Positions 1 through 46,771 are shown, counted from the stretch's first letter. The stretch: 64,000 nt of DNA from a virus (IMGVR_UViG_3300021400_001580:25281-89280), one strand, 5' to 3'. The notes: generated from the letters alone by a model not told the origin. Numbers and translations: made by a program.

Positions 1-3000
1 ACAGTTGATGGAACTGATACTAGTTATCCTCCAGTAGTCATTAATCGCTTTGAAGATTATTATTATAATACTAAAATGGTATAGCGCTCTAATAATTATT
101 ATGTGGAGCAATTTTTTACTTTAAAACCTGAAGTGTTATTTTAGTTGCATACTACACAAGCCCATCCAATTACAGTTAATTATATAATTTCTAACGCCGA
201 TACCTCCATTTACCTCGATGCTCTTGAAGTTTCCAAAGAAAATGCTTTTCCAAAGGTATCTTATGAGATTACTCCGAGTGCGATTGATCATAGTGTTATG
301 CGTAAACTATATAAGTAGCTCGCGCGTGTAATTATGATTAATGACGTGGAATTAAAGTTAGAGGATGTATTTGGTTATATCTCTTCTATAGATTTGGACT
401 TAGATAGACCTTGGGAAGATACTATTACAGTTCAAAATTATACTAACAAATTTGAGGATTTGTTCTCTTCAATTGTTGCCGCCAGTGAGGCTATGCAGAA
501 ATCATAGGGTATGATTGGTAATATGCTTGCGGGCGGAGTGCCTATGAGTCCTGATGCGTTCGCTAATTCCTTAAATATGAACTAGACTATTTTAGATGCA
601 TATTTAGATTCTCATTTTGATAGCAGTTAGGTAGTTACTGATAGATTAACACAATTATTTGATGAATTAGGTTTAATTCTTGGTAATGCGTCATCCGCCC
701 TTGGAGATTTATATAGTTTAAGTGAATAGGGCGCTGCAATTCTCGGTGGACTTGCACGTAATGTCGCGGACGATTTAGCTGTCCATATATATACTGGTGA
801 TACACGGCCAAGTAAATTTAAAATGGGTGATCTTTGGGTCAAAACAGAAACTGATGAAGATGGAAATACTTATACCAAGCGAATGGTTGCTACTAGTAAT
901 TCTGGGAATCTAACATTTAATAGAGAAGTAGATCCTGCAACTACTGGTTTTACTACTACCTATGACGGTTCTTTGGCCTCTATTACTGGCGCGAATATGG
1001 CCTATGACGCGGAAGAAGGGACTGTTGATATTTATGGTGAGCATAATATTGATATTAAATCTGGTGGATCTATATACATTGGCGCTAATGATCATATTGC
1101 AATGGTTGGTAATAAAACAGTAAATATTGGCGGTAGTAGAATTAATATTATTTCTGATGATTCTGGTAATGTTAGCAATATTACTTCTGGAATTTTATTA
1201 TAGGCAGTACGCGCTAAAAATAATAGTTCTGCGCCTATTACTTTTATTTAGACTGAAATCTTAGCTAAACGCACTAGTAGTAAAAATCCAAAAGCAGATG
1301 ATGATTTTAAAGCAGCAGTGGATTCTCATTTAGTTATTCCATCTACTGGTACCAACGCCATATTTAAACATTTTATTAATCCTACAATTAGTTATACGGT
1401 TTCTAAAAGTGATGTATTAGGAAACAATGACGTGATAGATTATGATAAAGTAGAGGCTCTATTAAAGAGTAATATTAATATTGCTTCTTCTATTTAGCTT
1501 TCTCCTATTGCAATTGACATGCAAGCGGCAGTCTTACAGCTATCTGCATCTAGTAGTATTAATTTACTTGCTTCAGATGGATCAAATACTTCCGTAATTA
1601 CAATTGGTACTCAAACGGGAATTAAGTTGGCATCAAGTCAAGGAATTTTTCTGCATTCGGGGACAGTCGAAAGTGCGGTGGAGACAGAAATTACGTCATA
1701 GCATTTTTTAGCAGGCGCGAGCGCGGGTGCTACCGGATCAGCTATTGAAATTACAAAAGATTATGCGATTATCGCAGCAGGATCAACAAATCGGGATACA
1801 ATTGCTAATTAGGGTATTGATCTATCAAACTCCACTATAACTGGAATGGAATTGCGATCCAATAAATTTGGTCTCGCTGTTAAGAGCGGGACTACTTATT
1901 CTGGTGTTATCATTGATAATACTGGTATATTAGTAGGTGTAGGAGCAGCGCCCACTACTACTGGTTCATATATTTATTTAAGACCACAAAAATTAGAAAT
2001 TGGATCGCATGCTGATTTATATATTAATACTAATAATTGTAAATTATAGACAAATTATAGTAATAGTAGTACTCAGAATATTGGAACTACCATCTTTGCA
2101 ATTGGTACTAATTTGAATGGTATTAATCCGGCTACTAAACTTTCTGAAGTGGACGTAAGCAAGGTTAATTTCCTTGTAAATCAGGATGGCGCGTATATTA
2201 ATGGTACTATATATGCTGCGGCAGGCGCGATTGGAAATGGTAAATATAAAATAAACATCGGGACACGTGCTGATAATTCATATATCTACTCTGGCATAAC
2301 ATCAATACCTCAAAGCGGTCCTACTACTACTTCTGGATTTTATTTAGGTACAGACGGTCTTATTGTGGGCACATCAGGTAGTTATTTAAAATATACCGCT
2401 AGTAGCGGTTTAACAGTTCAAGGCGCAATTACCGCGACGAGTGGTAGTATTGGATCTGGTAGTTATAAGATTACTATTGGTGAAGAAACTAATAGCAGAG
2501 CTTATATCCATTCCGGAATCACTAATATTAATGAAACTGGCTCTGGTTTCTATTTGGGTACGAATGGATTTAAAGTTGGTAATGATAATTCTTATTTAAA
2601 GTACGCTGATAGTAAACTGACGGTCAAAGGTGAAATTACCGCGACTAAATTTACTTTAGGCGCTGGAGTACAATTGTTGGGCGGTTTGAGCGAATAGAAC
2701 GCTAAGTATAGAAACACCGTAAAAGCTACAGCGGATCGTCCGGTTGTTGAACTTGCGGGTAAAACGATAGTTATTTCTGGCGAGGACGAGGGACAACAAG
2801 GATTATATATTGCTCCTGATATAAGCGCATATGATAAAAATAATTCTAGTAGCCGGGTATATTTAAATACATCAAGGGCGCGTATTACTCCAGCAAGAAT
2901 TTATCTAGATTTAGATGAACAAACATCTCTTCATATGGACAAGAATGGGCTTACTTTACAAGGTTCGCGTGTTACGATCAACGGCAAAGAAATTTGGGGT

Positions 3001-3603
3001 CGAGATGATATTATTTTCTCGGAAAAAGAACCGCGTAAAAAGGAATATCCAGCCGATCGAGATTGGATTTGGATTAAGCCTAGAGCAAATGTTGATGTAT
3101 ATTATGATTATGTTGCTCAAGCAGACGCAGGTGATTATAAGCCTAATCCGATTTCACTAACAACGGATAGTGATGGAGGAGTCAGCGATTCTAACAAAGG
3201 ATACAATTATAGTATTAAAATGACTATTTAGTTCGGTGTTGATTCTACTTATACAAGACAAACCTATGATAATGTTCATTTCGAAGGAATTCTGACTGTC
3301 TAGGGATCATCAGCGATAAAGGAATTTAAAACAAATATTATAGCTGAGGTAAGTGGCTTCTCGCAAGCTTCTAAACGGTGGACGTATACTTTTACGGCAA
3401 ATGTACACACTGGAAGTGCCAATTTTGGCGCGAATCCAAAGAGACATATATTAATCAAAAATCTTCAAATGTACACTAGTCAAAGTGGCTCAGAGTTAAA
3501 TTTTTATGTGTTACAGGCACAAGTGGTATGTTTAAACGTGGGTGTTGCTGGTGGCACAACTTGTGATGTTATTTACTATCCAGCAGGAGCTGGTCCATCA
3601 TAA
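1..3603 (+). CDS. Large tail/host-specificity protein, C-terminal ~1200 aa (5' truncated by window); TAG read-through
   Basis: Frame 1 has no TAA/TGA from 1 to TAA at 3601-3603 but 16 in-frame TAGs (82,142,316,505,583,628,727,1201,1249,1495,1699,1810,2047,2695,3229,3301). Track ORFs 823,1519,1846,2113,2935 are all in this frame. G/S/T-rich beta-type sequence with an internal repeat (GFYLGT.G...G...SYLKY twice). Tail identity is inference from composition. Confidence 0.8.
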
Positions 3604-3604
3604 T

Positions 3605-3644: not shown

Positions 3645-4034
3645 TTACTCACCAAAATCTATAAACGGTTCAAGCCGTGCCATCTCAGATGGCGTAAAGT
3701 TTACACTTTCTAGCGCATTAATATCTAACTTATTAGCATTAATTTCAACTTCACCCTTGAGTAGCTCTGAAATTTCATCATTAAAATCTGTTAGATGCTC
3801 TGGCGCGATCTTACAATTTCCATTCTCATCCGTTACAAGCTCGCCGTTATCGTCCTTAACACCACACTTATTAATTACCTTTAGCCGAGCATCATTAAAT
3901 CCCTGCATTTCAGCTTCAGCAGACTTTAGTAGCCTGCTAACTTCCCACGCCAGCTTAGCCTTTAATTCGGCGTTAGCTAGCTTCTGTAGCACTTCTGTGC
4001 TGTTCACCAAATCTCCAATGGTTAACTTAATCAT
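3645..4034 (-). CDS. Hypothetical phage protein (129 aa)
   Basis: Clean ORF, TAA stop at terminator, start coupled to upstream TGA. Confidence 0.75.
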   Translation of the reverse strand: MIKLTIGDLVNSTEVLQKLANAELKAKLAWEVSRLLKSAEAEMQGFNDARLKVINKCGVKDDNGELVTDENGNCKIAPEHLTDFNDEISELLKGEVEINANKLDINALESVNFTPSEMARLEPFIDFGE

Positions 4035-4777
4035 ATATCTTCACCCCAATTAATTGTTTTTATTTGTCCACAAAAATATTTTCCAATACAAATTGCATCT
4101 GCTTCATCTTCTGTGCAATCTATATCATACCAAATTTTTACTTTCGCCTACGCGGCTTTTTTGCGTGCGTCTCGGTGCATGTCACCGGTACTTACGCCGC
4201 AATACGCGCGCCATTCGCTAGGATACACCAAATCACTATCAACACATGCCTCAAATAACGTATCTAATATTACACCTTGCAAATTTGCCAGTGTCTAGAA
4301 CGTTTTTACCTGCGTTTGTGACTTATTAGGGCCATAGCTTTGTAGCTATATGTTCTCGGCTCCTACAAAGTTCGGGTCCCACTCCTTCAATGCGGCTTTA
4401 AGCCAATTCTTTACTTGATTAATTCGTTCTACTGTTGGTAATGCCGCATTTGTTCTAAAAGTTCCATATCCAACTAAGGTCTTGTCATCGTAAATAGAGT
4501 ATCCAGTAACACCAGTTGCTGCATCCAGCGCAAGAATACGTGTTGTGTTTGTGCCCTTATTGGGCACCTTATTTTTTTTGACTTTATACGGGTCTCCTGC
4601 CATACAGACATCGCATATCTTATGTTTGCGCCAATATTCAAATGTTTGTTCCTATTCATGTCCATAAGGACACTTCATTTTTAATGGCGTTTTTAAATTT
4701 GTATATGTTTCACTAATTAACTACCAATTTTCGGCTTCTAAGGCATTCTATACAATGTATATATTAATTTTACTCAT
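4031..4777 (-). CDS. ruvC: RuvC-like Holliday junction resolvase with N-terminal Zn-ribbon-like extension (248 aa, 6 TAG read through)
   Basis: Read-through gives RILALDAATGVTGYSIY...GAENIQLQ...EDEADAICIG (RuvC acidic motifs); N-terminal CPYGH...CDVC; ATG 4777 to TGA 4031 in one frame. Confidence 0.8.
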
Positions 4778-5576: not shown

Positions 5577-5792
5577 TTAAGTCTCATAAGATACTGTGAT
5601 TTCAACCATCCACCATTCTTCAGTAATCTCACCAGTCTTACGATCCTTCTTAGTCTTATAATCAATTTTCGTTTTTACTACAGTATACCCTTCAGTAATT
5701 GCGCGCGCCTTGTAATCGTCAACAAGCGCAGCAGCATCCTGCTCTGTGTATGCCCGGTAAACCTCAGTCTTCTTTGTCATTGTGCTCAGCAT
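5577..5792 (-). CDS. Hypothetical protein (~71 aa)
   Basis: ORF MLSTMTKK...VSYET with purine-rich RBS. Confidence 0.65.
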   Translation of the reverse strand: MLSTMTKKTEVYRAYTEQDAAALVDDYKARAITEGYTVVKTKIDYKTKKDRKTGEITEEWWMVEITVSYET

Positions 5793-6132
5793 TTTCTTTT
5801 TCCTTCCTTTCATTTAATGCGCGTAGTTTTTGAATAAGATTGATATAATCTAGTTTTTTCGCAGTTTCACTAACTGCATTTAATGCGTCATCATTACTTT
5901 GAATCAGTTCAGCGTATTTTTTCGCGCCCATCTTCTTGCGTAATGCTCTGCGTTTAGCACGATTCATTGGTATTTGCGTACTATTGATCTTTTCAATAGT
6001 GAAATCCTGAATCTTTTTTAATGTTTCTTCTGGTGTTTCAGCGCCTATTTGTGTGCGCGCTTCATCTTTACTAATATTCTATACTTGCGCGAAGCGCTCT
6101 ATTAATTCGTCAACGGATAAGTGCTCGTCCAT
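5764..6132 (-). CDS. Hypothetical protein (122 aa, 1 TAG read through)
   Basis: ATG 6132 next to the upstream stop; MDEHLSVDE...AQV[TAG]NISK... runs in frame into track ORF 5764..5967. Confidence 0.7.
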
Positions 6133-6133
6133 A

Positions 6134-7123
6134 TTACCCTCCAGCAGTGCGGTTATACCCAACTTCTTGGGTCTTAAAGAATTCTATGTAATACTTTTCC
6201 AATTCGTTTAATTTATCTTTATCACAATAAGTTATTACTTCAATAGCCCAATTCCAGAAACCTTCTTTAAGAATAGCATGATGTACTGCTTGGTCTGCGA
6301 TTGAACGGATTCCGATAGAAGACTTAAAGTGATCTGCAATTCGTGTTTTCACATTAGTACTCTTACCAATATAACATTTACCCGTGTTAATATTTGTTAT
6401 TTTATATATACCAGGTTCAGGCTTAATTTCTATTCGTTTAAAGGTATCATCTAAGTTTGGTTTAACATATTCTGCCCAAACTAGTTTTGATATGATATCT
6501 GGATGCTGTACTTTTGCGGCGACAGTTGTCAATAAGAACTCAATATCATCTTTATATTCATCTGGTAGTTGAATTGTATAATATAATCGTTGCTATTTCT
6601 CTAAATCATACTACTGTAATGTATTTTTAATCCCTTCAAACTTTTCTCGCGCAGCATTTATTTGTATCCGATAATCTTCACACTAAGCTTCCGCTAAAAG
6701 TTTAGCATTTTCTACTTGCTAAGTTAGATCAGCAATCTAACTATCACGTATATGTTCTTTTCGGTCAAGTTCTTGCGCGAGCTCGTGTGCTTTTAACTAA
6801 AAAGCATTCTCTAATGCTTTCTCTTTAGCCGCGATTTCACGTTTAAGGTTTTCTTCCTACTCATACCGCTATTCTTCAAAAAATTCTTCTAATTCTTCAG
6901 AACGGTCACGAATAGCATCTGTATAACGCTTATGCTCCTATTCCGTATCGTGCCGTAATTTTTCTAAATCATTCTCAAGCGTTGCTTTCTATTGTTGTAA
7001 TACAGTTACAGCGGTATTTAATTCATTGCGCGCGGTTTGATCTAAAATCTATTTCTCGTGATATTTATAAATAAGGAAGAATAGCGGAATTAGCATAACA
7101 AGGAATACTATCCAACCGTTCAT
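6134..7123 (-). CDS. Membrane-anchored coiled-coil GIY-YIG nuclease (329 aa, 11 TAG read through)
   Basis: N-terminal hydrophobic helix MNGWIVFLVMLIPLFFLIY; E/K/Q-rich coiled coil; C-terminal PGIYKITNINTGKCYIGKS...ELEKYYI...GYN; RBS GAGGTGAG. Confidence 0.8.
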
Positions 7124-7185: not shown

Positions 7186-7222
7186 ATAAAAAAAAGAGGA
7201 CGAGCATTTTACTGCTCGTCCT
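7186..7222 (-). terminator. Intrinsic terminator after the nrd/FNT operon
   Basis: Stem AGGACGAGCA/TGCTCGTCCT followed by a T-run on minus strand. Confidence 0.85.
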
Positions 7223-7772
7223 AAATACTGAAATTACTAAAAATGATACCGCCAATAATATTGCCTAAAATCGTTGCGATAAAAGACCAAGTAAACGAAT
7301 GAGTTATGGATAAATAATAATAATCTGCAATACAGTGATTAAATCCCGCGAGTATAAATCCCATAACGCACAGAATACACATCCATAGAGGCGACTTCTT
7401 ACATGTTGCCAATGACATTAATATTCCGCAACCAACTCCCTTTATGAGTGCATCACCAAAAGATTGTGAAGCTTTTATTATACTTATACTATCCGCCGCA
7501 TTTATTACTAGATTACGAGAAATGACTGTAATTAATGTAACTCCAATAAAATTCCCTACAAGAAAAATAATATAATCATACCATTTATATTCACGTGTAA
7601 TCATATATTGAATTTTCCCTGTAAATAAATTTAAATTGTAAATACGCACTGCTAATAGTCCACATGAGAATAAGAACGCACCTATAATAGGATTAGATAC
7701 AGATAAGTACATCCAGCCACTTAACGCAATAATTAATCCGGCAAGAACTGATTTATGTATTTTTGTTAGCAT
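7221..7772 (-). CDS. Formate/nitrite transporter (FocA/NirC family), compact
   Basis: Hydrophobic helices; LNLFTGK, GCGILM and FILAGFNHCIAD motifs typical of FNT channels. Confidence 0.85.
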   Translation of the reverse strand: MLTKIHKSVLAGLIIALSGWMYLSVSNPIIGAFLFSCGLLAVRIYNLNLFTGKIQYMITREYKWYDYIIFLVGNFIGVTLITVISRNLVINAADSISIIKASQSFGDALIKGVGCGILMSLATCKKSPLWMCILCVMGFILAGFNHCIADYYYLSITHSFTWSFIATILGNIIGGIIFSNFSI

Positions 7773-10493: not shown

Positions 10494-10696
10494 CCCTTAA
10501 ACTTTTTTCCACAATAGGGGCATTCATCACCATTTGAAAAATCATACGCTCCTATGTTGTGCGGGCATAAATTCTGTAGCTCTTTAATTTCATTTCTAAT
10601 TGTAAAAATTCGATCAGAGCGTTCCATTTTACTTAACTCTTTCTTTAAAGCCGTACTTAATTCATCATACTTTAACTTAATATCGTTGACTTCCAT
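10490..10696 (-). CDS. Hypothetical protein with Zn-ribbon (CPH...CPYCG)
   Basis: 68-aa ORF coupled to nrdD start. Confidence 0.7.
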   Translation of the reverse strand: MEVNDIKLKYDELSTALKKELSKMERSDRIFTIRNEIKELQNLCPHNIGAYDFSNGDECPYCGKKFKG

Positions 10697-11777
10697 ATTT
10701 CCAAAAACCTCCTTGTTTCACTGTCTCCATAGTTTGATAAAACAAGTTCTTTTGAGAAGGATATTTCTTTAATATTATTTCAAGCTGTTCGCGCTCAGGG
10801 CGAATTTCAGTCATACTTTTATCTTTAGGAATCCTTTCTGCTATAGATTTATACCTACTTGTTTCACCTTGTGTCCAAGTCGCAATTAGCTTGGATATAT
10901 CTGTAATCGGATTGTAATATCCCATTGCTGGTTCTTCGTATTTAATCTTTAACGGAATTTTACAGCTCCAAAATACATACAATAAATTTAATTTGTAAAT
11001 AATATCTTTAAAATAATCAGTTTGATAACGAAATGAGCCGCCAAGTGATAAATATACTTGCGCGCTTGGAGGAATGACTGCCAATAACCGATTTTTATAA
11101 TGCTTCATTAAAACAGATGTTTCTTTAAGCGGGATATCTAAATCGAGATAAGCGTCATTCCCTCGTGCAATTAAACTATTTTCACGCACTTCTAAAAAGT
11201 CTGATATTCGTTTATAATGTGCTGGATGAATGAATTGTATAGATGAGGGATTACGTTGAATTATTTTATCAATAACTGTGCGCCATCCTTCACGAAAAAA
11301 GTCTATATCATAGATATAAAGGCGATGCCGTTTACGAATTGCTGGCAAGGGTAAGACTTCCTCGCCGGCATGCCAACGGTAGTAAGCATTATCTAATAAT
11401 TTCTCTATTTCTTTATCTACCAGTCCAGCCGCGCGCTTATCTTTTAAAAAATTCTAATAAATACTAGTACGCGGTAAGGTGAAATCAATTAATTTATTCT
11501 CGAATGGCACGTATGTTCCATTTGTGAACGCGGTGCCGCCGTATATAACATTTGGCGCTCGCGCGAATGCATCTGGAACTTTGGTAAACTCTTTTGACTC
11601 GCTAAAAATATAGATTTTTTCGTAAGCCGATAATTCAGTTTCATCTAAATTAATTAAGCGGCAAAATTTATTTTCTTCTGATTGATAATAATTTGCTAGC
11701 TTCATTATCTCAAGATTGGGAGGACAGAGTTGAGGCTTAGGCCAGCTCTGTAATGCTAAATCCACTAGGCCAATCAT
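10677..11777 (-). CDS. Radical-SAM-associated-like hypothetical protein (366 aa, 1 TAG read through)
   Basis: Track ORFs 11454..11777 and 10677..11348 are in frame and joined across TAG 11454-11456. N-terminus MIGLVD...PPNLEIMKLANYY...YEKIYI...GGTAF resembles phage proteins starting IGLID..PNLALMK; no CxxxCxxC seen. Confidence 0.65.
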
Positions 11778-15745: not shown

Positions 15746-15772
15746 TTACTCACTTCCTTTACTCTATATCTT

Positions 15773-15801
15773 ATTATATCATAAATTTTAATTTTTGTCA
15801 A
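15773..15801 (-). promoter_or_regulatory. Sigma-A promoter upstream of dnaE
   Basis: TTGACA-17-TATAAT. Confidence 0.85.
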
Positions 15802-16078: not shown

Positions 16079-16133
16079 ATTTGCAGCTATCTTCCTTTAT
16101 TCATACCTATTATATAATAAAATTTAATATTTA

Positions 16134-16370
16134 TCAAAGCTTTCTACCACACCAAGGACAGTATACTATTTGTGTTTCTCCAACATACTCTTTCATATAT
16201 ATGTGAATATGATGTTCGTCTTCTCTTTGTGTATTTACCGAGTATGCTGATAGCCGCCATTTATTACCTTCATTTACTAATTGCATGTGTATACCATGCT
16301 CTCCTGCTATTACATGGTCCCTTTCATCAGTATTTTGTAGACAATATAAACATTGTTTATTAGAACTCAT
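16134..16370 (-). CDS. Hypothetical protein with Zn-ribbon (CLYC...CPWCGRKL)
   Basis: Track ORF, typical small phage Zn finger. Confidence 0.65.
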   Translation of the reverse strand: MSSNKQCLYCLQNTDERDHVIAGEHGIHMQLVNEGNKWRLSAYSVNTQREDEHHIHIYMKEYVGETQIVYCPWCGRKL

Positions 16371-18132
16371 ATTTACTATTATCCTCTACTAATTCATAGT
16401 CGGTAATGAATACTTGGACTGATTGTTTGCCCATCCATTCATTAAGATTCGCGCGCCCATAGACAGTTAACTTCTTGGTTCTATCATTCATAACTTCTTC
16501 AATGAAGTCTGTATCTTTAAATTTCACATAATCAATACCATTATATGAAATCTTAATACTATCTTTACTTGTGCCCATAACCATAACATTCATTAATGGG
16601 ATATTTTTAATAACAATCGTTGGTTCTTCAATATGATTGCCAAAATACTCTGGATGTGAAGCAAGACAACCAAGTAATTCATCATTATAATCATTACCAT
16701 CTAAGATATAATCTACAACATAACAATTTTCAAAGTCTTTTGCGCTTAAATGTTTATTAGCATAATTTAATAGAGAATCTAGTTTATCACCATTTAATCC
16801 CCAGCCGGCGGCATTATCATGCCCTGCAGTATATGTCACTAATCCGCTATCTTCCAAAAACTTTTTAAAACTAGGCAATCCAGCAAAATTTCCATCAGAT
16901 CGGATACTACCTTGAATTTCATTATCATTATTGCGGCGACCAATCATAACAGGCTTATGGTACTTACTTACAACATTCATTGCAATTAGGCCAGTTAGTT
17001 CTTGCGGAATATTATCCATTGCGTCTAATTCTACAAGAATAATATTATTATCGTCTAGGCCATCTTTCTGAATCTTAAAGTCTACTATACCCATAGCCTG
17101 TTCTTTTAATCTATCTTGCCGTGCTTTAGCATTCTTACCTACTCGTGCAGTCTGTTCGGCTGCATATTCAATATCTCCTGGGCGCGCGCCGCGTTTAGTA
17201 CTCTGCATTGGTTTATTGGGTTCAATAAAGCAATAGAACATGGTTTCTTTTTCTGTGATGGTACCTACGCGCGTAATAGCATTAATAAGAGGAGCAATAT
17301 AGAAAGCAATATCAATTGGAGTTAATCCGTTATATGGAAAAACGGCTTTATCTTTTAATGAATATGCTTGAGATTCAATAAGTGTTCTAAAGCCTTCATT
17401 ATGAATGTTCTTTAATCCTTCTATCATAATATAATTGGTTTCCACATCGGTTCTATCCATTACATCTGCGATTTCACCTAGCGCGGCCAAATCAATATAA
17501 TTATGTGCTTGACTTATACCTAGTTTTTCATCCAGCACTTCACAAAACTTATAAACCACGCCAGCGCCACATAATGATTTGTTTGGATAATCTGGCGATA
17601 GTTGATTATTTACTACAATAGTTGTCGGGAGGTTAGAAGTAACAGGATTACCCTAATCATCATATAATTGTTCATGATGATCTAAACAAATAACATCCAT
17701 ACCCATTTCTCCAAGCAAACGATGTTCTTTTACATCATATGAGCCAGCATCGGGTAAAATTACTAAGTCCCAACGTGCTTCATCTGTAATCCAATCTACT
17801 TTATCATTAAGGCCGTGTTGCTTATGATCGTGTACCGTAAATTCTAACTCTGCCTCTGGGAAGATATGTTTTATATATAACCAGAGAATTGCGCTTGATG
17901 TGAACCCATCACAGTCGGCATCTACAACAAAAAGAATTTTATGCTTTTCACGCAAGTGATGAAATAGTCTTTCTGCTGCGGCATCAATATTCTTTAATTG
18001 ATATGGATCGTTTTCACATAATATACTCGGGTTCATAAACTGTTCTATATCTTGAACTCCTCTATCTTGTAGGAGTTCTTTTAATGCTTTATCTGGGTTT
18101 GTACTATATTCTTTTCTTAATCTATATCTCAT
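16360..18132 (-). CDS. recJ: RecJ-like ssDNA exonuclease (DHH/DHHA1), 590 aa, 1 TAG read through
   Basis: DADCDGFTS, LPDAG, CLDHHE, then TAG 17653-17655, then in-frame YPNKSLCGAGVVYKF, ALGEIAD, AGHDNAAG. The two track ORFs are halves of one domain. Confidence 0.9.
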
Positions 18133-18143
18133 ATTATCTCCCT

Positions 18144-19262
18144 TCATCTCACTTTTATTCTATGTTTATAAAGTTCTTCAAAAACCTCTTGGCCTTTATC
18201 AAATGGGCTATCTTTATAGCCTAAAAGATTATCCATATCCCATATATATGAAAAAGTCGCTTGACTTCTATATTTTTTACATATATTTTCAAGTTTCATA
18301 CGATATGTGCGCGCCTGATCTGATCGCCAATCTTCATATTCTTTATCGAATGCAATGGTGATTTCATTCGCGCCTAATATATTGGTTAATAAGTTAATTT
18401 GAAACTTATTGATATTTGAGCCGCAACAGGCCACTGTATTGCTTAAGTTACCGTAAAATCCATCATCCAATAATACCGATTTTTCACCCTCTACAATAAT
18501 GGCGCTTTTTCGTGCTTTAATTCCCTCCTGATGTTCATAAATACCGTACAAATTAAAATGCAGTGGGTGAGCATATAAAGTTTGACCAATTTGTACAGGC
18601 CGATATTTTCCATATAATTCTACTTCTTCTGGTTCGAGAGCTCGCGCGCGAATGCCTATTAATCGTCCATTAATATCAAAATGTGGAATGGTAATTTTAT
18701 TTTGCGCACTCCAAAAACCAATATGGAATTTATCCATTACTTCTGGTTTAATCCCATCTCTCAGCCATAATGGATGGTATTTATGCATAAAGTATGATAG
18801 AACTTCTTTTGAATATTCTGGCAGCGGCGCAATATTAGAATCAAATTTATATTTATCCAAATTCAAATCGGATTTATAAACATGCGTGTTTGCTAAAATT
18901 AAATGCTTAATACATTTTTTTACATATTCCACTGCTTCGGGAAAGCTTACTGCCGTATAGTTTAATTGCATGAACTTTTGATAAAGGGTAAATATGGACA
19001 TTGCCTCATTACATTCAGTATAACATCTGAAAATTTTATTATTCTGATACCAATATAATTTCATAGAGGCTTCTTCATTTAACGGATTATGACAAATTGT
19101 AGGACAAATTAAATATCCTTTTTCAGGATAAAACGCTATTTGTTCTACTCCTAAGCTTTCTAGAAATACTTTGACATCTTCAATTGTTAAAGAATTAACG
19201 ATGTCTACTAATGTGACATCTAATAAATCTAGTTCAGGATCAGATGTTTGAAGAGTAGTCAA
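18144..19262 (-). CDS. dnaG: DNA primase (Zn finger + TOPRIM)
   Basis: CPTICH...CYTEC, ITIPHFD..GRLIGIRAR, IIVEGEKSVL, IAFDKE. Confidence 0.9.
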   Translation of the reverse strand: MTTLQTSDPELDLLDVTLVDIVNSLTIEDVKVFLESLGVEQIAFYPEKGYLICPTICHNPLNEEASMKLYWYQNNKIFRCYTECNEAMSIFTLYQKFMQLNYTAVSFPEAVEYVKKCIKHLILANTHVYKSDLNLDKYKFDSNIAPLPEYSKEVLSYFMHKYHPLWLRDGIKPEVMDKFHIGFWSAQNKITIPHFDINGRLIGIRARALEPEEVELYGKYRPVQIGQTLYAHPLHFNLYGIYEHQEGIKARKSAIIVEGEKSVLLDDGFYGNLSNTVACCGSNINKFQINLLTNILGANEITIAFDKEYEDWRSDQARTYRMKLENICKKYRSQATFSYIWDMDNLLGYKDSPFDKGQEVFEELYKHRIKVR

Positions 19263-24005: not shown

Positions 24006-24398
24006 TTAATTATTTTCTGTGATAATAAATAATTCATTAACTAATGACATTACTGCATCATCAGACTTAGTATTATCTAACACTTGCTGGAGCTTAGGTA
24101 AAACATCGGTTTGATATCCAGTTAAAGCTTGCTTTAAGTTTTTAATACGGTCCTCAAGCTGTCGTGCAATAATTGTCGCTCCAATCAATAAACGAGCAAT
24201 TTCTGTCCTAGTAGGAACATAATTATCACCTGCGGCATTAATAGTGTCAACTAATGTTTGATAATCGTCGCGCATGGTGGCAGCAGTCTTTACGCCCTAA
24301 GTATCACTCTTGGTTTCATTATATTCCATAACAGTTTCCGCCGCCGCAGCGGTAGTCTGTGCAATTTCCTTAAATAAAGTTATATACTTCTTATCCAT
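24006..24398 (-). CDS. Hypothetical protein (130 aa, 1 TAG read through)
   Basis: RBS AAGGGAG + ATG 24398; MDKKYITLF...KSDT[TAG]GVKT... in frame with track ORF 24006..24275. Confidence 0.75.
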
Positions 24399-28642: not shown

Positions 28643-29092
28643 TTAAGTAAGTATCGTCTTGCATTTGCCGTGACTTGCTTCATGCGGATGTTCTAAAATC
28701 CATTTAAGCTCACTTTTAATACTGCCGTAATTCTGATTAAAATTGATAAAGCTAGTACTGCCCCAATAAGTCATCAGTGATGTTGGTTCATTAGTAATCT
28801 GAATTACATGCACTGGGATACCTTTTGCGAATGCATAGCCCTGCTCCCAATTAGTTCCAGACGTAGAATTTCTTCCAATACTAATCAAAATCACTGCTTC
28901 GCATGAATCAATCGCGGCCACATCAGCGATAAAAACGTGCTTTGCCCACTCTTCTTGCGGCATATCCCATGCATTTTCAATTTTTAATTCCCATGGGCAA
29001 TAGATATCTACTTCTTTTTCGCGCAAATATTTAGCTATTTGAACCATAAAAGTACGATTAGCAGAATCACACGGACCAGCAATATAGAACAT
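28643..29092 (-). CDS. Nucleoside 2-deoxyribosyltransferase family protein
   Basis: MFYIAGP...DVAAIDSCEAV...GTNWEQGYAFAKGIPV. Confidence 0.85.
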   Translation of the reverse strand: MFYIAGPCDSANRTFMVQIAKYLREKEVDIYCPWELKIENAWDMPQEEWAKHVFIADVAAIDSCEAVILISIGRNSTSGTNWEQGYAFAKGIPVHVIQITNEPTSLMTYWGSTSFINFNQNYGSIKSELKWILEHPHEASHGKCKTILT

Positions 29093-29093
29093 A

Positions 29094-29471
29094 TTATTCC
29101 TCCTCTTTGAAGTATCCAAGTTTATCTACTGCCGCTTCTACACATTCATACAGAATATGAGTTCTAATAAGACAATCAATGTAGCGTGCGGGCGCATGAT
29201 GAAATTCTTCCTTCATGGGTTTTGTAAAATTATATCCCCATTCTTCAAGAACTTCAACTAATTCTGGTAGCCCATAGCCGACATAACTAGCGCATTCTTC
29301 TTCAGTACCGTAATAGGAACCACCATTACCTGTAATTGCATCTACGTCCCAAAGTTCCTCATCCAACATTTCAATATATTCTTCTTCTGTCATGTCGGGC
29401 TCAGGTTCCATATAATTATCAACTACGTAATTCATAATGTCTTCAACCATTGCTTCTCTATAATTGTACAT
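29094..29471 (-). CDS. Acidic hypothetical protein
   Basis: Track ORF with RBS. Confidence 0.7.
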   Translation of the reverse strand: MYNYREAMVEDIMNYVVDNYMEPEPDMTEEEYIEMLDEELWDVDAITGNGGSYYGTEEECASYVGYGLPELVEVLEEWGYNFTKPMKEEFHHAPARYIDCLIRTHILYECVEAAVDKLGYFKEEE

Positions 29472-37714: not shown

Positions 37715-38077
37715 TTACCTCTTTCCTGAATTAGTATAAGTTTTAGGAGCGTTTATCCAATCTCCTGTTAATGAATCCTTATAATCACTACCGCCCACTA
37801 CTGGAGTTACATTTGTAGCATGTATGGTAGGGTCTGGATGAGCGTGAGAAGTGTCTGAAGTACAAGTAATTTCTCGCCACCATGGTGGATATGTCCAATC
37901 TGATGCATTATTTCGAGAACAATCACATTGCCTTACCCATGGAGCATTAATGCGGCCGCAGCGAGGACATTCCCAACCTTGCTCTGCTTTAGGCTAAGTA
38001 TATGGACAATGCCAAGTTGTACTTGTGCCAGCACCTGTCGTTGTGTCTCCAACCTAAACTTTATTATCTACTGTCAT
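37715..38077 (-). CDS. Hypothetical protein with GWECPRCG motif (120 aa, 2 TAG read through; absent from track)
   Basis: MTVDNKV[TAG]VG...PYT[TAG]PKAEQGWECPRCGRINAPWVRQCDC...TAA 37715. Confidence 0.7.
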
Positions 38078-39190: not shown

Positions 39191-40408
39191 TTAATCAAGT
39201 AGATCTGCACATGCAGCAACTTTACTACGTTCTGTTTTCATTAATTTTACCATTCCAAATAAAGGATTCCCAGCCAAGCGTTCAATTAGTCGTGGAATAC
39301 CGCTCATTTTCTCATCCTTATAATCGCACTGTCGAATATCAGCACAGAAAATAATTTGACTGCCTTCTGCAACCCTTCCTAGTAGTAACTGAATATTAGA
39401 GATCAGCAGGTTCTCTGCTTCATCTACTAATATTAAACTATGCTTTAGATCGCGGCCGCGCAAGGTAGAAAGATGCGCGGGTTCAATTTTGCCATCGGTC
39501 AAATACTAATCAAATAACTGAGGGCCTAGATGATCTTCGATTTGCCGAAGCCACGGATATTGCTTATCAATTTCATCACCTGGTAAAGTACCAAGTTTTC
39601 CGGCTCCTTTCACATCCAAATTATTTTTAACAAAAACAATTTTATCATATTTGCCCTACATTAGCTGATTAGTGGCCCAAGTTTCTGCGAACATTGACTT
39701 ACCAGTTCCAAAATGACCTATGCATAATTTAATTGGTACTTCATCGTTCTATAATAAATCAAGATACATCTTTTGTTCTAGATTACGTGGACGAATGCGC
39801 TCTCCAGTTGGGGCGACAAATTCTTTATACTTTATATTTCTATACTCTTCTCCAGTCCATACTAGTATATCCTTTAATTCCGACCCTACATAAATTTCTG
39901 CAAATTCATTGGTCTGACACTTAAGAATATTTATTTTGGGATCAGAATATAACATGGCCATCTCTGACTCGTTAGGGTAATATTTACCCCATCCACTCCA
40001 CAGTTCGACCTTATCAATATTTTCTGAAGGCTTTATCGCAATCAGATGTGGTAATTGAGAAGCAAATATGTACTGTAATACATCATTCGTCACAAATGTG
40101 ATTTTTTGATTTTGTTCTTTAGCATAAAGTTCAGCCGCGAGTAAAATTCTATGATCATTGATATTCTGTAAAAATGAATAATGCTTTAAGTTTTTATCAA
40201 TTTTTCTATTATCTACGCTAACGATATGAATATTACCATTATGAAGAATAGCGCGCGTTGCTGCACGAGCTCGCGCCTTGACTTCTTCACTATGGCTATT
40301 GGATGTTTTGATATTTTCTAGTTCCTAAACAGTAATTGGACTTATTAGAACATCTGTGTCAAGATTTACTGTCTATCCAAGCAATGCAGACGTATCTGCA
40401 AAATACAT
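39191..40408 (-). CDS. phoH: PIN-domain + PhoH ATPase (PhoH2-like), 405 aa, 5 TAG read through
   Basis: PIN: ADTSALL, SPITV[TAG]ELENIK, NDHRIL, FVTND. PhoH: PRNLEQ, Walker A GHFGTGKS (between TAG 39749 and TAG 39656), LGTLPGD, LRGR, VDEAEN. Confidence 0.9.
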
Positions 40409-40410
40409 AA

Positions 40411-41022
40411 TCATATTTCATCACCATCTTGGCCAATAATCTTATCTACCATATTAAATTGTTTTAATTCATCAGCGTTCATGAACCATTGATGCCGAGA
40501 ATGCGATTCATAATCTTCTTCAGTAATATTTGTATTAGTAATTAAGAAATTTTTAATCTGTTCATCAACGCGATCATTAAATGCCATAATATCCGCGGCG
40601 GTCTTAGACTCTTGTGCCGCTAATGCTACATAACCATCATGAATTAGACCGTATGAGCATGGGAAACAATAACGTACTACATTCTTATTTTTCCCTCCAG
40701 CCGCAAGCAAGACGGCCGCCATGGAACAAGCATAGCCAGGCACAATAATATTTAATGGTTTAGAATAGTTAGCAATATAATATGCTAGGAAGAAGCCATC
40801 TGACACTGAGCCTCCGCTACTATTTAATATTAGAGTTACCGGAGCAGTATCGCTATCTAATTCAAAATCGCGTAGTGGCAGATAGACTTTTTCTACAACA
40901 GATTCTTGTACATCATCATTAAAAATAATTGTGCGATGGTTTAATAACTAATTAAAATACTGATAAGTTACTGGGTCAAAACCAGAAATTTGTATGTCAG
41001 TAAATAGTTCGTCTAAATCCAT
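40411..41022 (-). CDS. clpP: ClpP-family protease (203 aa, 1 TAG read through)
   Basis: RTIIFND, LNSSGGSV, ACSMAAVLL (Ser), LIHDG (His); RBS GGAGG + ATG 41022. Confidence 0.85.
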
Positions 41023-41057
41023 AGTGCCTCCTATCTTATTAACAGTAGTTAATAAGC

Positions 41058-42206
41058 TTAATTTAAAATTTTTGCTAGTGTGCAATCTGCCGGGTCAAGG
41101 TCACCCTTACGAAGTGATCGTAGAATAGGGTGGCGGATAGAAATACCTTCTCCATCAGCAGCTGCGCGCCGTTCAGATACCATCATTCCCGTAATTGTAA
41201 CAGCGGTACCGATCCAATTTTCAGGTTCATCGCGTAAAGCGGTTTTAAATTCTTCGGTAAGGCCGCTAACTTTACATAAAGGAATGAGAACATGGTCTTT
41301 ATTATAAACGCCTACTTGAATTGCAGCAGGCCAGTGATTATAATAGTTCTTTGTGACAGGTATATATGCTCCACCAAGTTGGTATTCACCAAAGTAGTCT
41401 CCGGTTACAAGCTCGCCAGAACGTTGATTTTCCCAGAGCTGCCAATGCGCGATGTCATCTCCATGGTATAATTTTTCTCCTGCGACAGAAGACATAATTA
41501 CAGCATCAATTTCTGACTCAATTTCCTGCTTTACTTTAATAGTAGTCCATGCGGAGCTGCGCTTTCCTGGCGTATAAAGGATGCCCTTTTTATAACATAC
41601 CGCGCCTTCGCCTCCGCGCGCGAAAATTTCTGCAATGTCATTAAAGAAATTTTCATCCATTTCATGAAATTCAATGCCTTTAACCAACGGGCTATTAATT
41701 CGTTTGATAACAGCCGGAATATATTTCACACGTTCTTCGATGGGCTGATCGAGAAAACTTTCTCCGTCAAGTGCTAATACATCAAAAATACGCCACTCTA
41801 CTGGCTGTTCTTTTTGCCGCGCAAGCGCCTTTGGAGGGAGGCAACGAAGAACACTGCCAACTGTCGCATCAACGCCGCCTGGAATATAACCTTCGCCAAG
41901 TAAAACTGTATCGCCGCGTGTAAATGCGCGACAAACATCGTCCCAAAATAATACTTTATCTTGGACTTCACCATAAGTCTTCGTCACGGTGCTAATGCCA
42001 CGAGTTTGTAGCACTTGATCTTCAGCAGTAATAATACCTCTTAGAAAATTACCGTCGAATTTCTCACTCCAAATATACTGGCCGCTTTCCATGGCCGCTT
42101 CTAGCTTCATACGTTTCATATCCTTCGATACTGAAGCAGTCGGAGCCCAGTATTTTTGAATACCAAGGGTTTTCCACTCATTACTTGTCATACGTTTCTC
42201 CTTCAA
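41058..42206 (-). CDS. ATP-dependent DNA ligase
   Basis: SEKFDG adenylation motif, LLGEG, RIFDVL, EGAV, KVK, C-terminal OB ...RHP. Confidence 0.9.
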   Translation of the reverse strand: MKEKRMTSNEWKTLGIQKYWAPTASVSKDMKRMKLEAAMESGQYIWSEKFDGNFLRGIITAEDQVLQTRGISTVTKTYGEVQDKVLFWDDVCRAFTRGDTVLLGEGYIPGGVDATVGSVLRCLPPKALARQKEQPVEWRIFDVLALDGESFLDQPIEERVKYIPAVIKRINSPLVKGIEFHEMDENFFNDIAEIFARGGEGAVCYKKGILYTPGKRSSAWTTIKVKQEIESEIDAVIMSSVAGEKLYHGDDIAHWQLWENQRSGELVTGDYFGEYQLGGAYIPVTKNYYNHWPAAIQVGVYNKDHVLIPLCKVSGLTEEFKTALRDEPENWIGTAVTITGMMVSERRAAADGEGISIRHPILRSLRKGDLDPADCTLAKILN

Positions 42207-44279: not shown

Positions 44280-44335
44280 TGGAATCACCTCCTTGGGAAG
44301 AAATTTTATATATAAACTCTATTTTAGGATAGAGA

Positions 44336-46771
44336 TTATAAATTTGCGTTTAATATTTTAATAATGTCCAGCATGCCAGCGAGAAAAGTAATGTTTACAC
44401 TTACCGACTTTTTATTATAGTTAAATGTCTGACTCCATTGCTCTTGGGCAGTAACTATCTTTTCTTTTTTGCCTTGCTTATAATGCTCGCCTACCTATAA
44501 TGCTCTATTAACTGGATTAACAATTTCTGCATGTGAACCATTACTGATTTTATCAAAAGCGCTTGTACCAGATAATTTGTCTAATTGTAATATAGAAAAT
44601 ATTTCAGTTAATTTATTATAAGTTAACTATAATATGAATGATGAAGGATAATAAGTACCATTTAGATAATATAAATGTAAAAATTTACTACTATTGTTCG
44701 CGTCTAAATGATATTTTTCTCTTATCTATTGATTTAAATATACAGCTTGCTATCCAACATCATCAAACATGAGCATAACAGCAGCAGTCGTTAAGAAATG
44801 TTCAATTGGCTCTTTGTATTGTGATCCCATAAGTGCTGTACCAGAATTATATATAGTAAAAATAAGCCATTCTTTGTCAGGTAAATCTCCGCTGTTTAAT
44901 CCTCCATATTCAAATAATTTATATATATTATTTATCTAATTTTCTACTGTACCACCCAGTGAGCCACCGTGAAAGCCCTTACTACTATCATACTTATTGT
45001 AGCTTTTAACAGTGGAACCAATTTGGACATTATTCTTTAAAGCACTTAAAATCTATTCAATCTCTGTAGTTTTTATCTTGGCTTTTTCTAATATTTTTCT
45101 TACATTGATTAGTTCCTATTCTTTAATTGCGAGACGGCGCATAGTTTCAGCCTCAATAGAAAATTCTTTAGCACTAAAATGATTTGTTTTTCTAAATGCA
45201 GTTTCATCGAATGATAAATTAGAGGTATCAATATTAGAATCCTGTATGTTTAAAGTATTAATAAAACTTTGAGTGATTGTATTAGCAATTTTTTTCCATG
45301 GTATATTACCTTGATTAATCTTAACTTGTGCTATTTCAATACCGCTTACATCAGCTTTTTGTGTTCCAAAGGTTAAAATAGTTTCACCAATACGACCATC
45401 CTATAAAATTGCTTGAGAAATACCTATACGGTTAATAGATTCTGAAACGATGTTATCTTTTGCTGCAATATTGACTGTTATTAAAGGCTGATTTTCTAAT
45501 TGCTAATTAATAATATTAGCCATTTTATTCCAATCATATTTTCCTTTTACTTTTAAACCTTCTTTTGGAAAAGACTCTAATAAGGCTTTATATACCTCTT
45601 CTCTACCCCAGGCTATAGTATTAGAAACTGAAGTCTTTTGACGGTTATTTAATACAGTCTATAGCAAATCTATTATTTCTGGACCTAAATTATCTAATCC
45701 ACCATTATTATTAGCACTTACTTGTGTTTTTTCATCATAGGCTCGAATAATTCTATCATTACCATATTTTAATCGTTCACTTTGCGACATTAATTCTGAA
45801 TAACCTTTCATTAAATCATATATTTCAGAACTTTCAATTTTTTCTTTGGCAGATTTTCCTGGCATTGATTCAATTTTAGCTATAAATTGTTTAACTAAAG
45901 CCTGTTTATTTTCGCCACTTAATTTATAATATAAATTAGTATTCTAATTATTTAACATATCAATTATAACTGGAGTAGCCATTTTAGTAAAATTTAAAAT
46001 AAGTTCGGAGGTAAATTCTTTTTGGAAATTAGCCAGGCCATTATTCATCACGTAAGGTAAAATTTTTTCTCTAAAATCAATTGACTTCCATAATTGATTA
46101 AAAAGAGATTTAAATTCTGCCTATATTGTATTTGCAAGCGTTTTTGTATTAAAACCAAAATCTTGTTCTTCTTTAGTTAGCCAACCTTTTTTCAATCCGA
46201 CTTGTAAAAAATTACTAAAAGCAGCGTAGTAGTTTACATCTTTTTGTTCCATTCGTTGATTCTTCTTATCAAAAGTATTAATAGTATAAGTACCATCTTC
46301 ATTAGCATTATAATGTTTTTCAAATTTACGATATAATTTTTCTAGTTCCGACAAGCGATGAATTTCAAAATTTAAACTTTTTTTATATGCAAGCGCTCCA
46401 TCATAATATTCATTAATTAAATTAATGAAATCCTTATAATTTATAGTTGTGCCACCAATAGCTTTTTTACAATCATCACGTAATTGCTATGGCAATTTAC
46501 TATTATTTAAAATATTAATAGTAAAATATTCTCTTTCACTGCCTTGTTCAGCTTCAATCATTCGTTTTAAAAAATCCATCGCATTTTGAATTATGCGAAA
46601 TCCTTCACTATCTTTCTCTTTAAAATTTATCTAGGCAGCATGACTACCTAAAACACTTTCAACGGCACTCCCCAACTCGGTTTCTTTTAATGAATTAAAA
46701 AAGAAAAAACGATCAGAAGAAGATACATCAGATTTAGGAAAATACATATCAAAGTAATCTCCGTTAGCCAT
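44336..46771 (-). CDS. Large orphan protein (811 aa, ~14 TAG read through; only fragments in track)
   Basis: RBS GGAGGT + ATG 46771; open to TAA 44336 except for TAGs; track ORFs 46121..46354 and 45659..45865 are in this frame; very AT-rich. Confidence 0.8.

What the first reader, a model, noticed from the sequence alone, without database searches (positions are those of the whole stretch)
1..46771. Genome uses TAG as a sense codon (genetic code 15-like)
Seen: many reading frames are interrupted only by TAG, never by TAA/TGA: tail 16, 811-aa orphan ~14, GIY-YIG 11, RuvC 6, PIN-PhoH 5, single TAGs in RecJ, ClpP and others. Read-through reunites split motifs: RecJ DHH with YPNKSLCGAGV; PhoH Walker A between two TAGs; a CxxC containing a TAG at 49817. 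Every genuine gene end I checked is TAA or TGA. Established: amber-to-Gln recoding occurs in gut phages, including Firmicutes phages. Standard-code annotation misses whole genes here.
Basis: partly seen in the sequence, partly recalled or inferred. Interest (0 to 1): 0.78.

Follow-up and report, generated by a model that had tools for sequence, protein, structure and literature searches.

The report
Phage reads TAG as glutamine
This is half of a large ruminant-gut phage genome that uses the stop codon TAG as a glutamine codon, mostly in its virion genes and a few nucleases; this kind of recoding is already well described, so it is a clean new example rather than a new phenomenon.

Summary
The window is 64 kb of an 89,280-bp phage contig (about 50% complete by CheckV). 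Under TAG=sense, 17 window genes carry 66 in-frame TAGs, plus one in a small zinc-ribbon ORF.

- **Coding density.** Over the contig, cover by ORFs of 200 aa or more rises from 0.35 to 0.70 with TAG as sense. TGA gives 0.42 and TAA 0.48.
- **Meaning of TAG.** A homolog-column test recovered all 61 sense codons and assigns TAG to Gln (185 columns, bootstrap 2000/2000). Relatives have CAA, CAG or TAG at those sites.
- **Distribution.** TAG supplies 43% of Gln codons in the virion module and 9% in the replication module. There, four genes hold 36 of the 50 TAGs.
- **Stops.** All 80 complete ORFs end in TAA or TGA. One TAG lies 3 codons before a TAA and is ambiguous.
- **Suppressor tRNA.** The contig has no tRNA(CUA). 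Complete relatives of 181-190 kb do, with a Gln-type acceptor end and a long extra arm.

This matches the published TAG-recoded gut phages (Borges et al.), so it is a new member of a known kind.

In passing, a distant 172-kb relative reads TAG as glutamate. The scan has already noted TAG=Glu on other phage DNA.

The parts
1..3603 (+). 3' part of a 2098-aa virion-module ORF (contig 22587-28883). It has 16 in-frame TAGs in the window and 41 in all, and ends in TAA.
   Evidence: No PHROG family matched, so the 'tail' label is unverified.
4031..4777 (-). RuvC-like Holliday-junction resolvase, 248 aa, 6 TAGs (46% of its Gln-type codons)
   Evidence: phrog_827 at 7.5e-20 and phrog_159
5764..6162 (-). 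132-aa ORF with 1 TAG; the relatives' consensus at that column is Q
6134..7123 (-). 329-aa protein with a C-terminal GIY-YIG nuclease domain, 11 TAGs (48% of Gln-type codons)
   Evidence: PF01541 at 3.9e-09, residues 237-321
7209..7772 (-). Formate/nitrite-transporter-family channel. Its TAG lies 3 codons before the TAA, and this is the only ambiguous TAG (sense or stop).
   Evidence: PF01226. Relatives' C-terminal tails are 6-9 aa, which fits read-through slightly better.
10677..11777 (-). 366-aa ORF with 1 TAG at codon 108. Homolog alignments run across it, so it is one gene.
16360..18147 (-). RecJ-like exonuclease, 595 aa, with a single TAG (Q165) just after the DHH motif
   Evidence: DHH, DHHA1 and RecJ_OB lie on either side of the TAG
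24006..24398 (-). 130-aa ORF with 1 TAG
28643..29197 (-). Nucleoside 2-deoxyribosyltransferase-like protein, 184 aa, 2 TAGs near the N-terminus
   Evidence: PF05014
29761..30282 (-). 173-aa ORF with 1 TAG
37715..38077 (-). 120-aa ORF with 2 TAGs; relatives also have TAG at the first
39191..40414 (-). PIN-PhoH protein, 407 aa, 5 TAGs (Q14, Q30, Q222, Q253, Q303). It served as the test gene for the codon-level alignment.
   Evidence: PF13638 and PF02562. Relatives have CAA, CAG or TAG at 4 of the 5 sites.
40411..41085 (-). ClpP-like protease, 224 aa, 1 TAG (codon 46). All relatives have Q or TAG there.
   Evidence: PF00574
43848..44288 (-). 146-aa ORF with 1 TAG at codon 129. Relatives have Q or TAG there and align for 17 residues beyond it.
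44336..46771 (-). 811-aa ORF with no family match, 14 TAGs, in a stretch of 30% G+C
   Evidence: Relatives align over the C-terminal third.
49730..49933 (-). 67-aa zinc-ribbon-like ORF (CDEC...CIQC) whose second CxxC contains the TAG at 49817
50728..51495 (-). DUF5662 protein, 255 aa, 1 TAG
   Evidence: PF18907
8253..28555 (-). Core of the TAG-poor replication block: NrdD, DNA polymerase (1322 aa), DnaB-like helicase and two topoisomerase II subunits, all with 0 TAG. The few single-TAG genes inside this span are listed above.
   Evidence: 36 TAG-free genes of the minus-strand module hold 367 CAA/CAG codons.
57698..62879 (-). tRNA array: 13 ordinary tRNAs plus one with an 86-nt insert (62586-62746). 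None has a CUA anticodon.
63096..63164 (-). Weak tRNA-like hit (31.6 bits) whose loop contains CUA. Rejected as a suppressor.
   Evidence: Three acceptor-stem mismatches. ARAGORN does not call it, even when relaxed. Its fold is no better than shuffled sequence, z +0.40.

Best explanation
The contig is about half of a ruminant-gut phage genome of roughly 180-190 kb that translates TAG as glutamine (table-15-like). TAA and TGA are its only stops.

Shown:
- TAG is in frame in real, conserved genes.
- Glutamine is what relatives have at those sites.
- Usage is bimodal. The plus-strand virion module uses TAG for 43% of its Gln codons. Most replication genes have none. Four minus-strand genes are as TAG-rich as virion genes: the RuvC-like resolvase, the GIY-YIG protein, PIN-PhoH and the 811-aa orphan.

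Inferred:
- Decoding is by a phage tRNA(CUA) charged with Gln, like the one in complete relatives. Those tRNAs have a weak 1-72 pair, G2-C71 and G73, and one shares its acceptor stem with that phage's own tRNA-Gln(UUG).
- In this phage that gene would lie in the missing half of the genome.
- TAG-free genes can be translated by the host's standard code as soon as the phage enters the cell. TAG-bearing genes yield only stubs until the suppressor takes over, so the code change works as a timer for virion and DNA-processing proteins.
- A 4248-aa ORF with 124 TAGs needs suppression close to 100% per codon (0.99^124 is about 0.29). RF1 termination must therefore be nearly abolished late in infection, by means not visible here.
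For: - **Coding density.**
- **Gene set.** 81 ORFs with 283 in-frame TAGs, all ending in TAA or TGA.
- **Domains.** Pfam and PHROG domains span the TAGs.
- **Codon alignment.** In the PhoH alignment against 14 relatives, TAG swaps with CAA and CAG.
- **Column test.** All 61 of 61 sense codons were recovered. TAG scores Q 1.07, E 0.72 and K 0.53 over 185 columns, with bootstrap 2000/2000. A first run gave 139 columns and 4998/5000.
- **Reciprocal signal.** Relatives' in-frame stops align with this phage's TAG (10.9%), CAA (3.9%) and CAG (1.8%).
- **Conserved columns.** TAG gives Q in 55%, against 70% for CAA and 80% for CAG.
- **Module contrast.** 21.4 versus 3.4 TAG per 1000 codons. Four genes hold 36 of the 50 minus-strand TAGs, Fisher 4e-19.
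- **Relatives' tRNA.** G001, G003 and G004 carry tRNA(CUA). The G004 acceptor stem matches its own tRNA-Gln(UUG) in six of seven pairs.
- **Completeness.** The contig is 50% complete.
- **Published precedent.** 10.1101/2021.08.26.457843; PMC9523058.
Against: - No tRNA(CUA) is on the contig. The slot where G001 has its suppressor holds only the flanking elements here.
- No release-factor gene was found in this contig or in four relatives, so how RF1 is overcome is unknown.
- 16 of 52 minus-strand genes, including RecJ and ClpP, carry at least one TAG, so the early/late split is not clean.
- TAG columns are less Gln-rich than CAA or CAG columns and show a small Glu excess.
- The timing of expression is inferred from gene content only.
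- No protein-level evidence exists.
Confidence: 0.88

Rival explanations
1. TAG is a sense codon but stands for glutamate, or for a Gln/Glu mixture, as in the distant relative G005. This could arise if the suppressor is charged with Glu and only partly converted to Gln by the host's transamidation route.
For: G005 clearly reads TAG as Glu: 395 columns, E 1.96 against Q 0.85, with GAA as the main aligned codon. In this phage E is the second-best call (0.72). E is the consensus in 14% of conserved TAG columns, against 5% for CAA.
Against: Q wins every bootstrap for this contig. It also wins for its three closest complete relatives, at 1802-2000 of 2000 bootstraps. Invariant-Q columns such as PhoH Q222 and ClpP codon 46 hold TAG. 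The small E excess (4 of 29 against 2 of 40) is not significant by my estimate from these counts; no test was run. It could also reflect TAG arising from GAG by one base change.
Confidence: 0.06
2. TAG is read through without any phage suppressor tRNA. The reader would be a host tRNA, or near-cognate reading by tRNA-Gln, helped by a phage factor that disables RF1.
For: No tRNA(CUA) is on the contig, and the G001 suppressor slot is empty here. The contig does encode tRNA-Gln(UUG). Borges et al. found suppressors in only 40% of TAG-recoded genomes.
Against: Half the genome is missing. Three of the four relatives of the Gln-reading lineage that were checked (G001, G003, G004) encode tRNA(CUA); none was found in the 19 kb read from G002. 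Near-cognate read-through is far too inefficient for an ORF with 124 TAGs (inference). An anticodon UUG does not pair with UAG.
Confidence: 0.08
3. The TAGs are real stops. The genes would then be pseudogenes, split genes or assembly errors in a standard-code phage.
For: None beyond the standard-code reading itself.
Against: 283 in-frame TAGs stand against zero TAA or TGA in the same frames. Domains and homolog alignments continue across the TAGs. Relatives from other samples share TAG at the same columns. TAG-specific opening of long ORFs is seen in four genomes.
Confidence: 0.01

Closest known systems
TAG-recoded large gut phages of Borges et al. (Agate, Sapphire and Jade clades; bioRxiv 10.1101/2021.08.26.457843)
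   Same: Genomes of 150-210 kb from animal guts including cattle, with many tRNAs. The recoded stop is concentrated in structural genes and variable in replication genes. Close standard-code relatives exist, and a suppressor tRNA is found in only part of the genomes. All of this is seen here.
   Different: Clade membership was not tested, because no marker tree was built. No RF2 gene was found. Here a set of nucleases inside the replication module is as heavily recoded as the virion genes.
Genetic code 15 in crAss-like phages, validated by metaproteomics (Peters et al., PMC9523058)
   Same: TAG is read as Gln in late genes of a phage whose host is presumed to use the standard code.
   Different: A different phage group, with no protein-level evidence here. 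The relatives' suppressor tRNA has a long variable arm.
phAss-1 group of human-gut phages with TAG in 41 ORFs (PMC10607447)
   Same: A genome of about 136 kb with TAG in many ORFs and a suppressor tRNA (abstract).
   Different: Relatedness was not tested and the paper was not read beyond its abstract.
TAG=Glu phages
   Same: Same general phage type and habitat. They share genes (PhoH at 41% identity), recode late genes with TAG, and have the same anticodon stem-loop in the suppressor (CGGUCUCUAAAACCG).
   Different: The meaning of TAG differs: Glu there and Gln here. The suppressor there is an ordinary short-arm tRNA. In this phage's close relatives it has a long extra arm.

Membership tests
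Genetic code 15-type recoding (TAG = Gln; TAA and TGA = stop) | TAG occurs in frame inside conserved protein-coding genes | tested here: met
   66 (+1) TAGs in 17 (+1) window genes and 283 on the contig. Pfam domains and homolog alignments span them.
Genetic code 15-type recoding (TAG = Gln; TAA and TGA = stop) | Homologs have glutamine at the TAG positions | tested here: met
   The column test gives Q, with bootstrap 2000/2000 and 61 of 61 control codons correct. CAA and CAG are the aligned codons.
Genetic code 15-type recoding (TAG = Gln; TAA and TGA = stop) | TAA and TGA still terminate, and TAG is not used as a terminator | tested here: met
   80 of 80 complete ORFs end in TAA (55) or TGA (25). 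Making TGA or TAA sense gives much less gain than TAG. One TAG, 3 codons before a TAA, is ambiguous.
Genetic code 15-type recoding (TAG = Gln; TAA and TGA = stop) | A tRNA with anticodon CUA is available | tested here: inconclusive
   None on this 50%-complete contig. Present in relatives G001, G003 and G004 with a Gln-type acceptor end.
Genetic code 15-type recoding (TAG = Gln; TAA and TGA = stop) | Gln is found at TAG sites in the proteins themselves | not testable with these tools
   Needs metaproteomics.
Late-gene recoding as a lytic-cycle timer (Borges et al. model) | The recoded codon is enriched in structural or lysis genes | tested here: met
   21.4 versus 3.4 TAG per 1000 codons, and 43% versus 9% of Gln codons. 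No lysis genes were identified.
Late-gene recoding as a lytic-cycle timer (Borges et al. model) | Early and replication genes are readable in the standard code | tested here: inconclusive
   36 of 52 minus-strand genes are TAG-free, including the polymerase, helicase, topoisomerase and NrdD. RecJ, ClpP and 14 others carry TAG.
Late-gene recoding as a lytic-cycle timer (Borges et al. model) | The host uses the standard code, and the code change happens during infection | not testable with these tools
   The host is unknown, with only a weak Firmicutes hint. No expression data exist.

The most novel reading that the evidence does not exclude
This phage's lineage may decode TAG with an unusual long-arm tRNA(CUA) that enters the host's glutamine pathway. 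Among related ruminant-gut phages the same codon, with the same anticodon stem-loop, has been given two meanings (Gln here, Glu in G005), while other relatives keep the standard code. If the Gln suppressor is charged through the Glu-then-amidation route, Gln and Glu meanings would be one step apart. The slight Glu excess at TAG columns here would then be a trace of mixed decoding.
Probability: 0.12. Interest if true: 0.7.

Novelty: new member of a known kind. Interest (0 to 1): 0.3.

Why it matters
For annotation, a standard-code gene call on this contig loses or fragments about half of the coding sequence. That includes the whole virion module and several nucleases. Pipelines must use TAG=Gln here, and should not assume Gln for every TAG-recoded relative.

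For biology, it is a sharp example of gene-by-gene use of a recoded stop. Four DNA-processing or unknown genes inside an otherwise standard-code replication block are recoded as heavily as virion genes. That fits the published idea that the code change times the production of proteins that would be harmful or useless early in infection.

It does not open a new question by itself.

Tried and rejected
- I could therefore not check the DNA behind the 120 database homologs of PhoH. Their Q residues may come from code-15 gene calls. I relied on codon-level alignments to fetched loci instead.
- **No close phage record.** Megablast of 22 kb against GenBank phages found nothing.
- **Weak tRNA-like hit at 63096-63164.** Its loop contains CUA, but I rejected it as a suppressor. 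It has three acceptor mismatches, ARAGORN does not call it, and its fold is no better than shuffled sequence.
- **Other searches for a suppressor.** A stem-loop pattern scan and BLAST with the relatives' suppressors found no orthologue. Alignment to the G001 suppressor slot found only the flanking 66-nt element.
- **Release factors.** No RF-1 domain gene in this contig or four relatives.
- **An apparent TAG=Lys signal.** It appeared in five loci and is an artefact. Those loci are standard-code relatives. Their 'in-frame TAGs' therefore probably come from spurious or antisense ORFs; this was inferred, not examined.
- **Pyrrolysine.** ARAGORN's 'tRNA-Pyl' label is only the name it gives to a CUA anticodon. 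The alignments show Gln.
- **Virion protein search.** The search for related loci with the 567-aa virion protein found no relatives.
Full report
**What the sequence is.** The window is bases 25281-89280 of a single 89,280-bp virus contig. CheckV rates it 50% complete and it has no terminal repeats.

It has two modules:
- A plus-strand virion module runs from contig base 1 to 28883, which is window 1-3603.
- A minus-strand module covers window 3645 to about 57000. It holds replication, nucleotide-metabolism and other genes: NrdD, a 1322-aa DNA polymerase, a DnaB-like helicase, two topoisomerase II subunits, RecJ, ClpP and PIN-PhoH.

A tRNA array follows at 57698-62879. Relatives come from ruminant-gut metagenomes. 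The closest complete ones are 181-190 kb with direct terminal repeats.

| Gene | Window position | In-frame TAGs |
|---|---|---|
| Virion-module ORF (3' part) | 1-3603 | 16 |
| 811-aa orphan | 44336-46771 | 14 |
| GIY-YIG protein | 6134-7123 | 11 |
| RuvC-like resolvase | 4031-4777 | 6 |
| PIN-PhoH | 39191-40414 | 5 |
| RecJ, ClpP and others | various | 1 each |

The quoted motifs are there:
- DHH followed by Q165(TAG), and YPNKSLCGAGV, in RecJ.
- Walker A GHFGTGKS between two TAGs in PhoH.
- CIQC with the TAG at 49817, in a 67-aa zinc-ribbon ORF.

Pfam and PHROG domains lie on both sides of the TAGs. With TAG as sense, a greedy gene set has 81 ORFs covering 89% of the contig, with 283 in-frame TAGs. 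All 80 complete ORFs end in TAA (55) or TGA (25).

Cover by stop-to-stop ORFs of 200 aa or more:

| Code assumed | Whole contig | Window only |
|---|---|---|
| Standard | 0.35 | 0.44 |
| TAG as sense | 0.70 | 0.62 |
| TGA as sense | 0.42 | 0.53 |
| TAA as sense | 0.48 | 0.53 |

The window contrast is smaller because it is mostly the TAG-poor module. The signal is strongest just upstream of the window, in a 4248-aa ORF with 124 TAGs.

**Which amino acid.** The 120 database homologs of PIN-PhoH have Q at four of the five TAG sites. So I fetched DNA of relatives and aligned codons. In PhoH, TAG in one phage lines up with CAA, CAG or TAG in the others.

I then ran a small Codetta-like test:
- All ORFs were translated with X at TAG and compared by tblastn with about 100 related loci and three whole relatives.
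- Each codon was assigned the residue that best fits the aligned columns.
- The test recovers all 61 sense codons.
- It gives TAG = Q (Q 1.07, E 0.72, K 0.53) over 185 columns, with Q winning 2000 of 2000 bootstraps. A first run gave 139 columns and 4998 of 5000.

Reciprocally, relatives' in-frame stops fall on this phage's TAG (10.9%), CAA (3.9%) and CAG (1.8%) far more than on any other codon. In conserved columns of TAG-bearing genes, TAG gives Q in 55%. CAA gives 70% and CAG 80%, so TAG behaves like a somewhat less constrained Gln codon.

Many of the reference loci are standard-code relatives (standard-code cover 0.8-0.9). They give an unbiased reading of the ancestral residues.

**The test can tell Gln from Glu.** A distant relative is G005: 171,958 bp, with terminal repeats and PhoH at 41% identity. 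It has 725 in-frame TAGs that align with Glu. E scores 1.96 against Q 0.85 over 395 columns, with 2000 of 2000 bootstraps.

- The main aligned codon is GAA, two base changes away from TAG.
- In conserved columns TAG gives E in 78%, like GAA at 82%.
- A second contig from another sample (L013) gives the same result.
- The three closest complete or large relatives of the window phage (G001, G003, G004) all give Gln.

So Gln for this window is a tested result, not a default. An apparent Lys signal in five loci is an artefact. Those loci are standard-code, so their in-frame TAGs probably sit in spurious or antisense ORFs; this was inferred, not examined.

**How TAG is distributed.** TAG supplies 43% of Gln codons in the virion module (21.4 per 1000 codons) and 9% in the minus-strand module (3.4 per 1000). 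Within the minus-strand module:
- Four genes hold 36 of the 50 TAGs: the RuvC-like resolvase, the GIY-YIG protein, PIN-PhoH and the 811-aa orphan. Their TAG share is 26-48%, like virion genes.
- The remaining 48 genes average 3% (Fisher 4e-19).
- 36 genes with 367 ordinary Gln codons have no TAG at all.

This is the pattern Borges et al. describe for large recoded gut phages: structural genes recoded and replication genes variably so. Sixteen minus-strand genes, including RecJ and ClpP, have at least one TAG, so the division is not absolute.

**TAG as a stop.** If TAG also terminated some genes, single TAGs would pile up just before the next TAA or TGA. Only one real gene shows this. The FNT-family channel (7209-7772) has a TAG three codons before its TAA. 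Relatives end with variable 6-9-residue tails, which fits read-through slightly better but does not decide it.

**The decoding machinery.**
- *This contig.* ARAGORN (with and without introns, and relaxed), Rfam, a stem-loop pattern scan and BLAST with the relatives' suppressors find no tRNA(CUA).
- *The weak hit.* A weak Rfam tRNA hit at 63096-63164 has CUA in its loop. It also has three acceptor mismatches and folds no better than shuffled sequence, so I reject it.
- *Relatives.* G001, G003 and G004 each carry one tRNA(CUA) at the head of their tRNA array.
- *Shape of those tRNAs.* They have a weak first pair (U1-A72 or A1-U72), G2-C71, G73 and a long extra arm. The G004 acceptor stem differs at one position (base 72) from that of its own tRNA-Gln(UUG).
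- *What that suggests.* From textbook knowledge of tRNA-Gln identity this points to Gln charging. That is a lead, not a test.
- *The slot in this window.* In G001 the order is tRNA(CUA), a cow-rumen-3-like element, then a 66-nt element. The window has the last two (61768-61866 and 61613-61676, the latter 98% identical) but no tRNA in front.
- *Where the suppressor is.* It is therefore either in the missing half of the genome or absent.
- *Release factors.* No release-factor gene was found in this contig or in four relatives.

A 124-TAG ORF needs near-complete suppression (0.99^124 is about 0.29). Termination at TAG must therefore be almost switched off late in infection. How that happens is not visible here.

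**Comparison with what is known.** TAG-to-Gln recoding in gut phages is established by prediction (Borges et al., 10.1101/2021.08.26.457843) and by proteomics (PMC9523058). It is now surveyed in jumbo phages, with the highest rates in rumen (PMC13037316). This contig has the same size class, habitat, tRNA richness and late-gene bias, and it has standard-code relatives. It is a new member of a known kind.

I did not build a marker tree, so clade assignment (Agate, Sapphire or Jade) is open. The host is unknown. NrdD is closest to bins of rumen Bacilli, Clostridia and Erysipelotrichaceae, which is a weak hint only.

**The Glu side observation.** I found no paper in the held library describing TAG=Glu in phages. 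The phrase search is not exhaustive. Earlier notes of this scan report TAG=Glu in at least eight other phage genomes, one of them 172 kb. I reproduced it independently on G005. It lies outside this window and does not change the verdict here.

**Verdict.** It is an ordinary though very clean case of a known recoding. Interest is low to moderate.

Noticed in passing
L104-L112 (G005, 171,958 bp); also L013, L014, L073: A distant relative reads TAG as glutamate, not glutamine. It has 725 in-frame TAGs. Over 395 homolog columns E scores 1.96 against Q 0.85, GAA is the main aligned codon, and conserved columns are 78% E. Its tRNA(CUA) (L073 7571-7644) is a short-arm tRNA with a 4-nt variable loop. 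No paper on this turned up in the library searches. Earlier notes of this scan report the same on other genomes.
   Followed up: yes
L067 2547-2631; L069 5318-5410 (minus strand); L071 2469-2558: The amber suppressor tRNAs of the Gln-reading relatives are 85-93 nt long with a long, hairpin-forming variable arm (the class II shape). Their acceptor ends are Gln-like: a weak 1-72 pair, G2-C71 and G73. All share the anticodon stem-loop CGGUCUCUAAAACCG with the Glu-type suppressor of G005.
   Followed up: partly
L074-L082, L086, L087, L091, L096, L098 versus L083, L085, L097, L102: The virion module has close relatives (59-69% identity in one protein) in plain standard code (standard-code cover 0.77-0.91). 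Others are as heavily TAG-recoded as this contig (standard-code cover 0.12-0.33, TAG-sense 0.80-0.92).
   Followed up: partly
window 62586-62746 (-): A tRNA gene interrupted by an insert of about 86 nt in the anticodon loop. Rfam scores the tRNA at 50 bits. ARAGORN reads it as His(GTG) with the intron at position 38. Other splice points would give Asn or Ile. Similar interrupted tRNAs occur in G001, G002 and G005.
   Followed up: no
window 61768-61866 (-) and 61613-61676 (-): A partial match to the Rfam cow-rumen-3 RNA (46 bits, below the 86.7-bit cut-off). Next to it is a 66-nt element 98% identical to one that follows the suppressor tRNA in G001.
   Followed up: partly
window 58811-58877 (-): A sub-threshold match to the Y-RNA-like YrlA family (38 bits, cut-off 69) inside the tRNA array.
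   Followed up: no
window 7209-10493 (-): A formate/nitrite-transporter-family channel gene lies close downstream of the anaerobic ribonucleotide reductase gene NrdD (8253-10493), with one 166-aa ORF (7753-8253) between them.
   Followed up: no
L151, L169, L173, L174, L177, L178, L180, L182: Several bacterial-bin NrdD matches span 3.1-3.3 kb for a 2.2-kb query. The gene is therefore interrupted there by about 1 kb, possibly an intein or an intron.
   Followed up: no
contig 8105-20851 (+), upstream of the window (L028, L029): A single 4248-aa ORF with 124 in-frame TAGs. Making it full-length needs almost complete suppression at every TAG.
   Followed up: no
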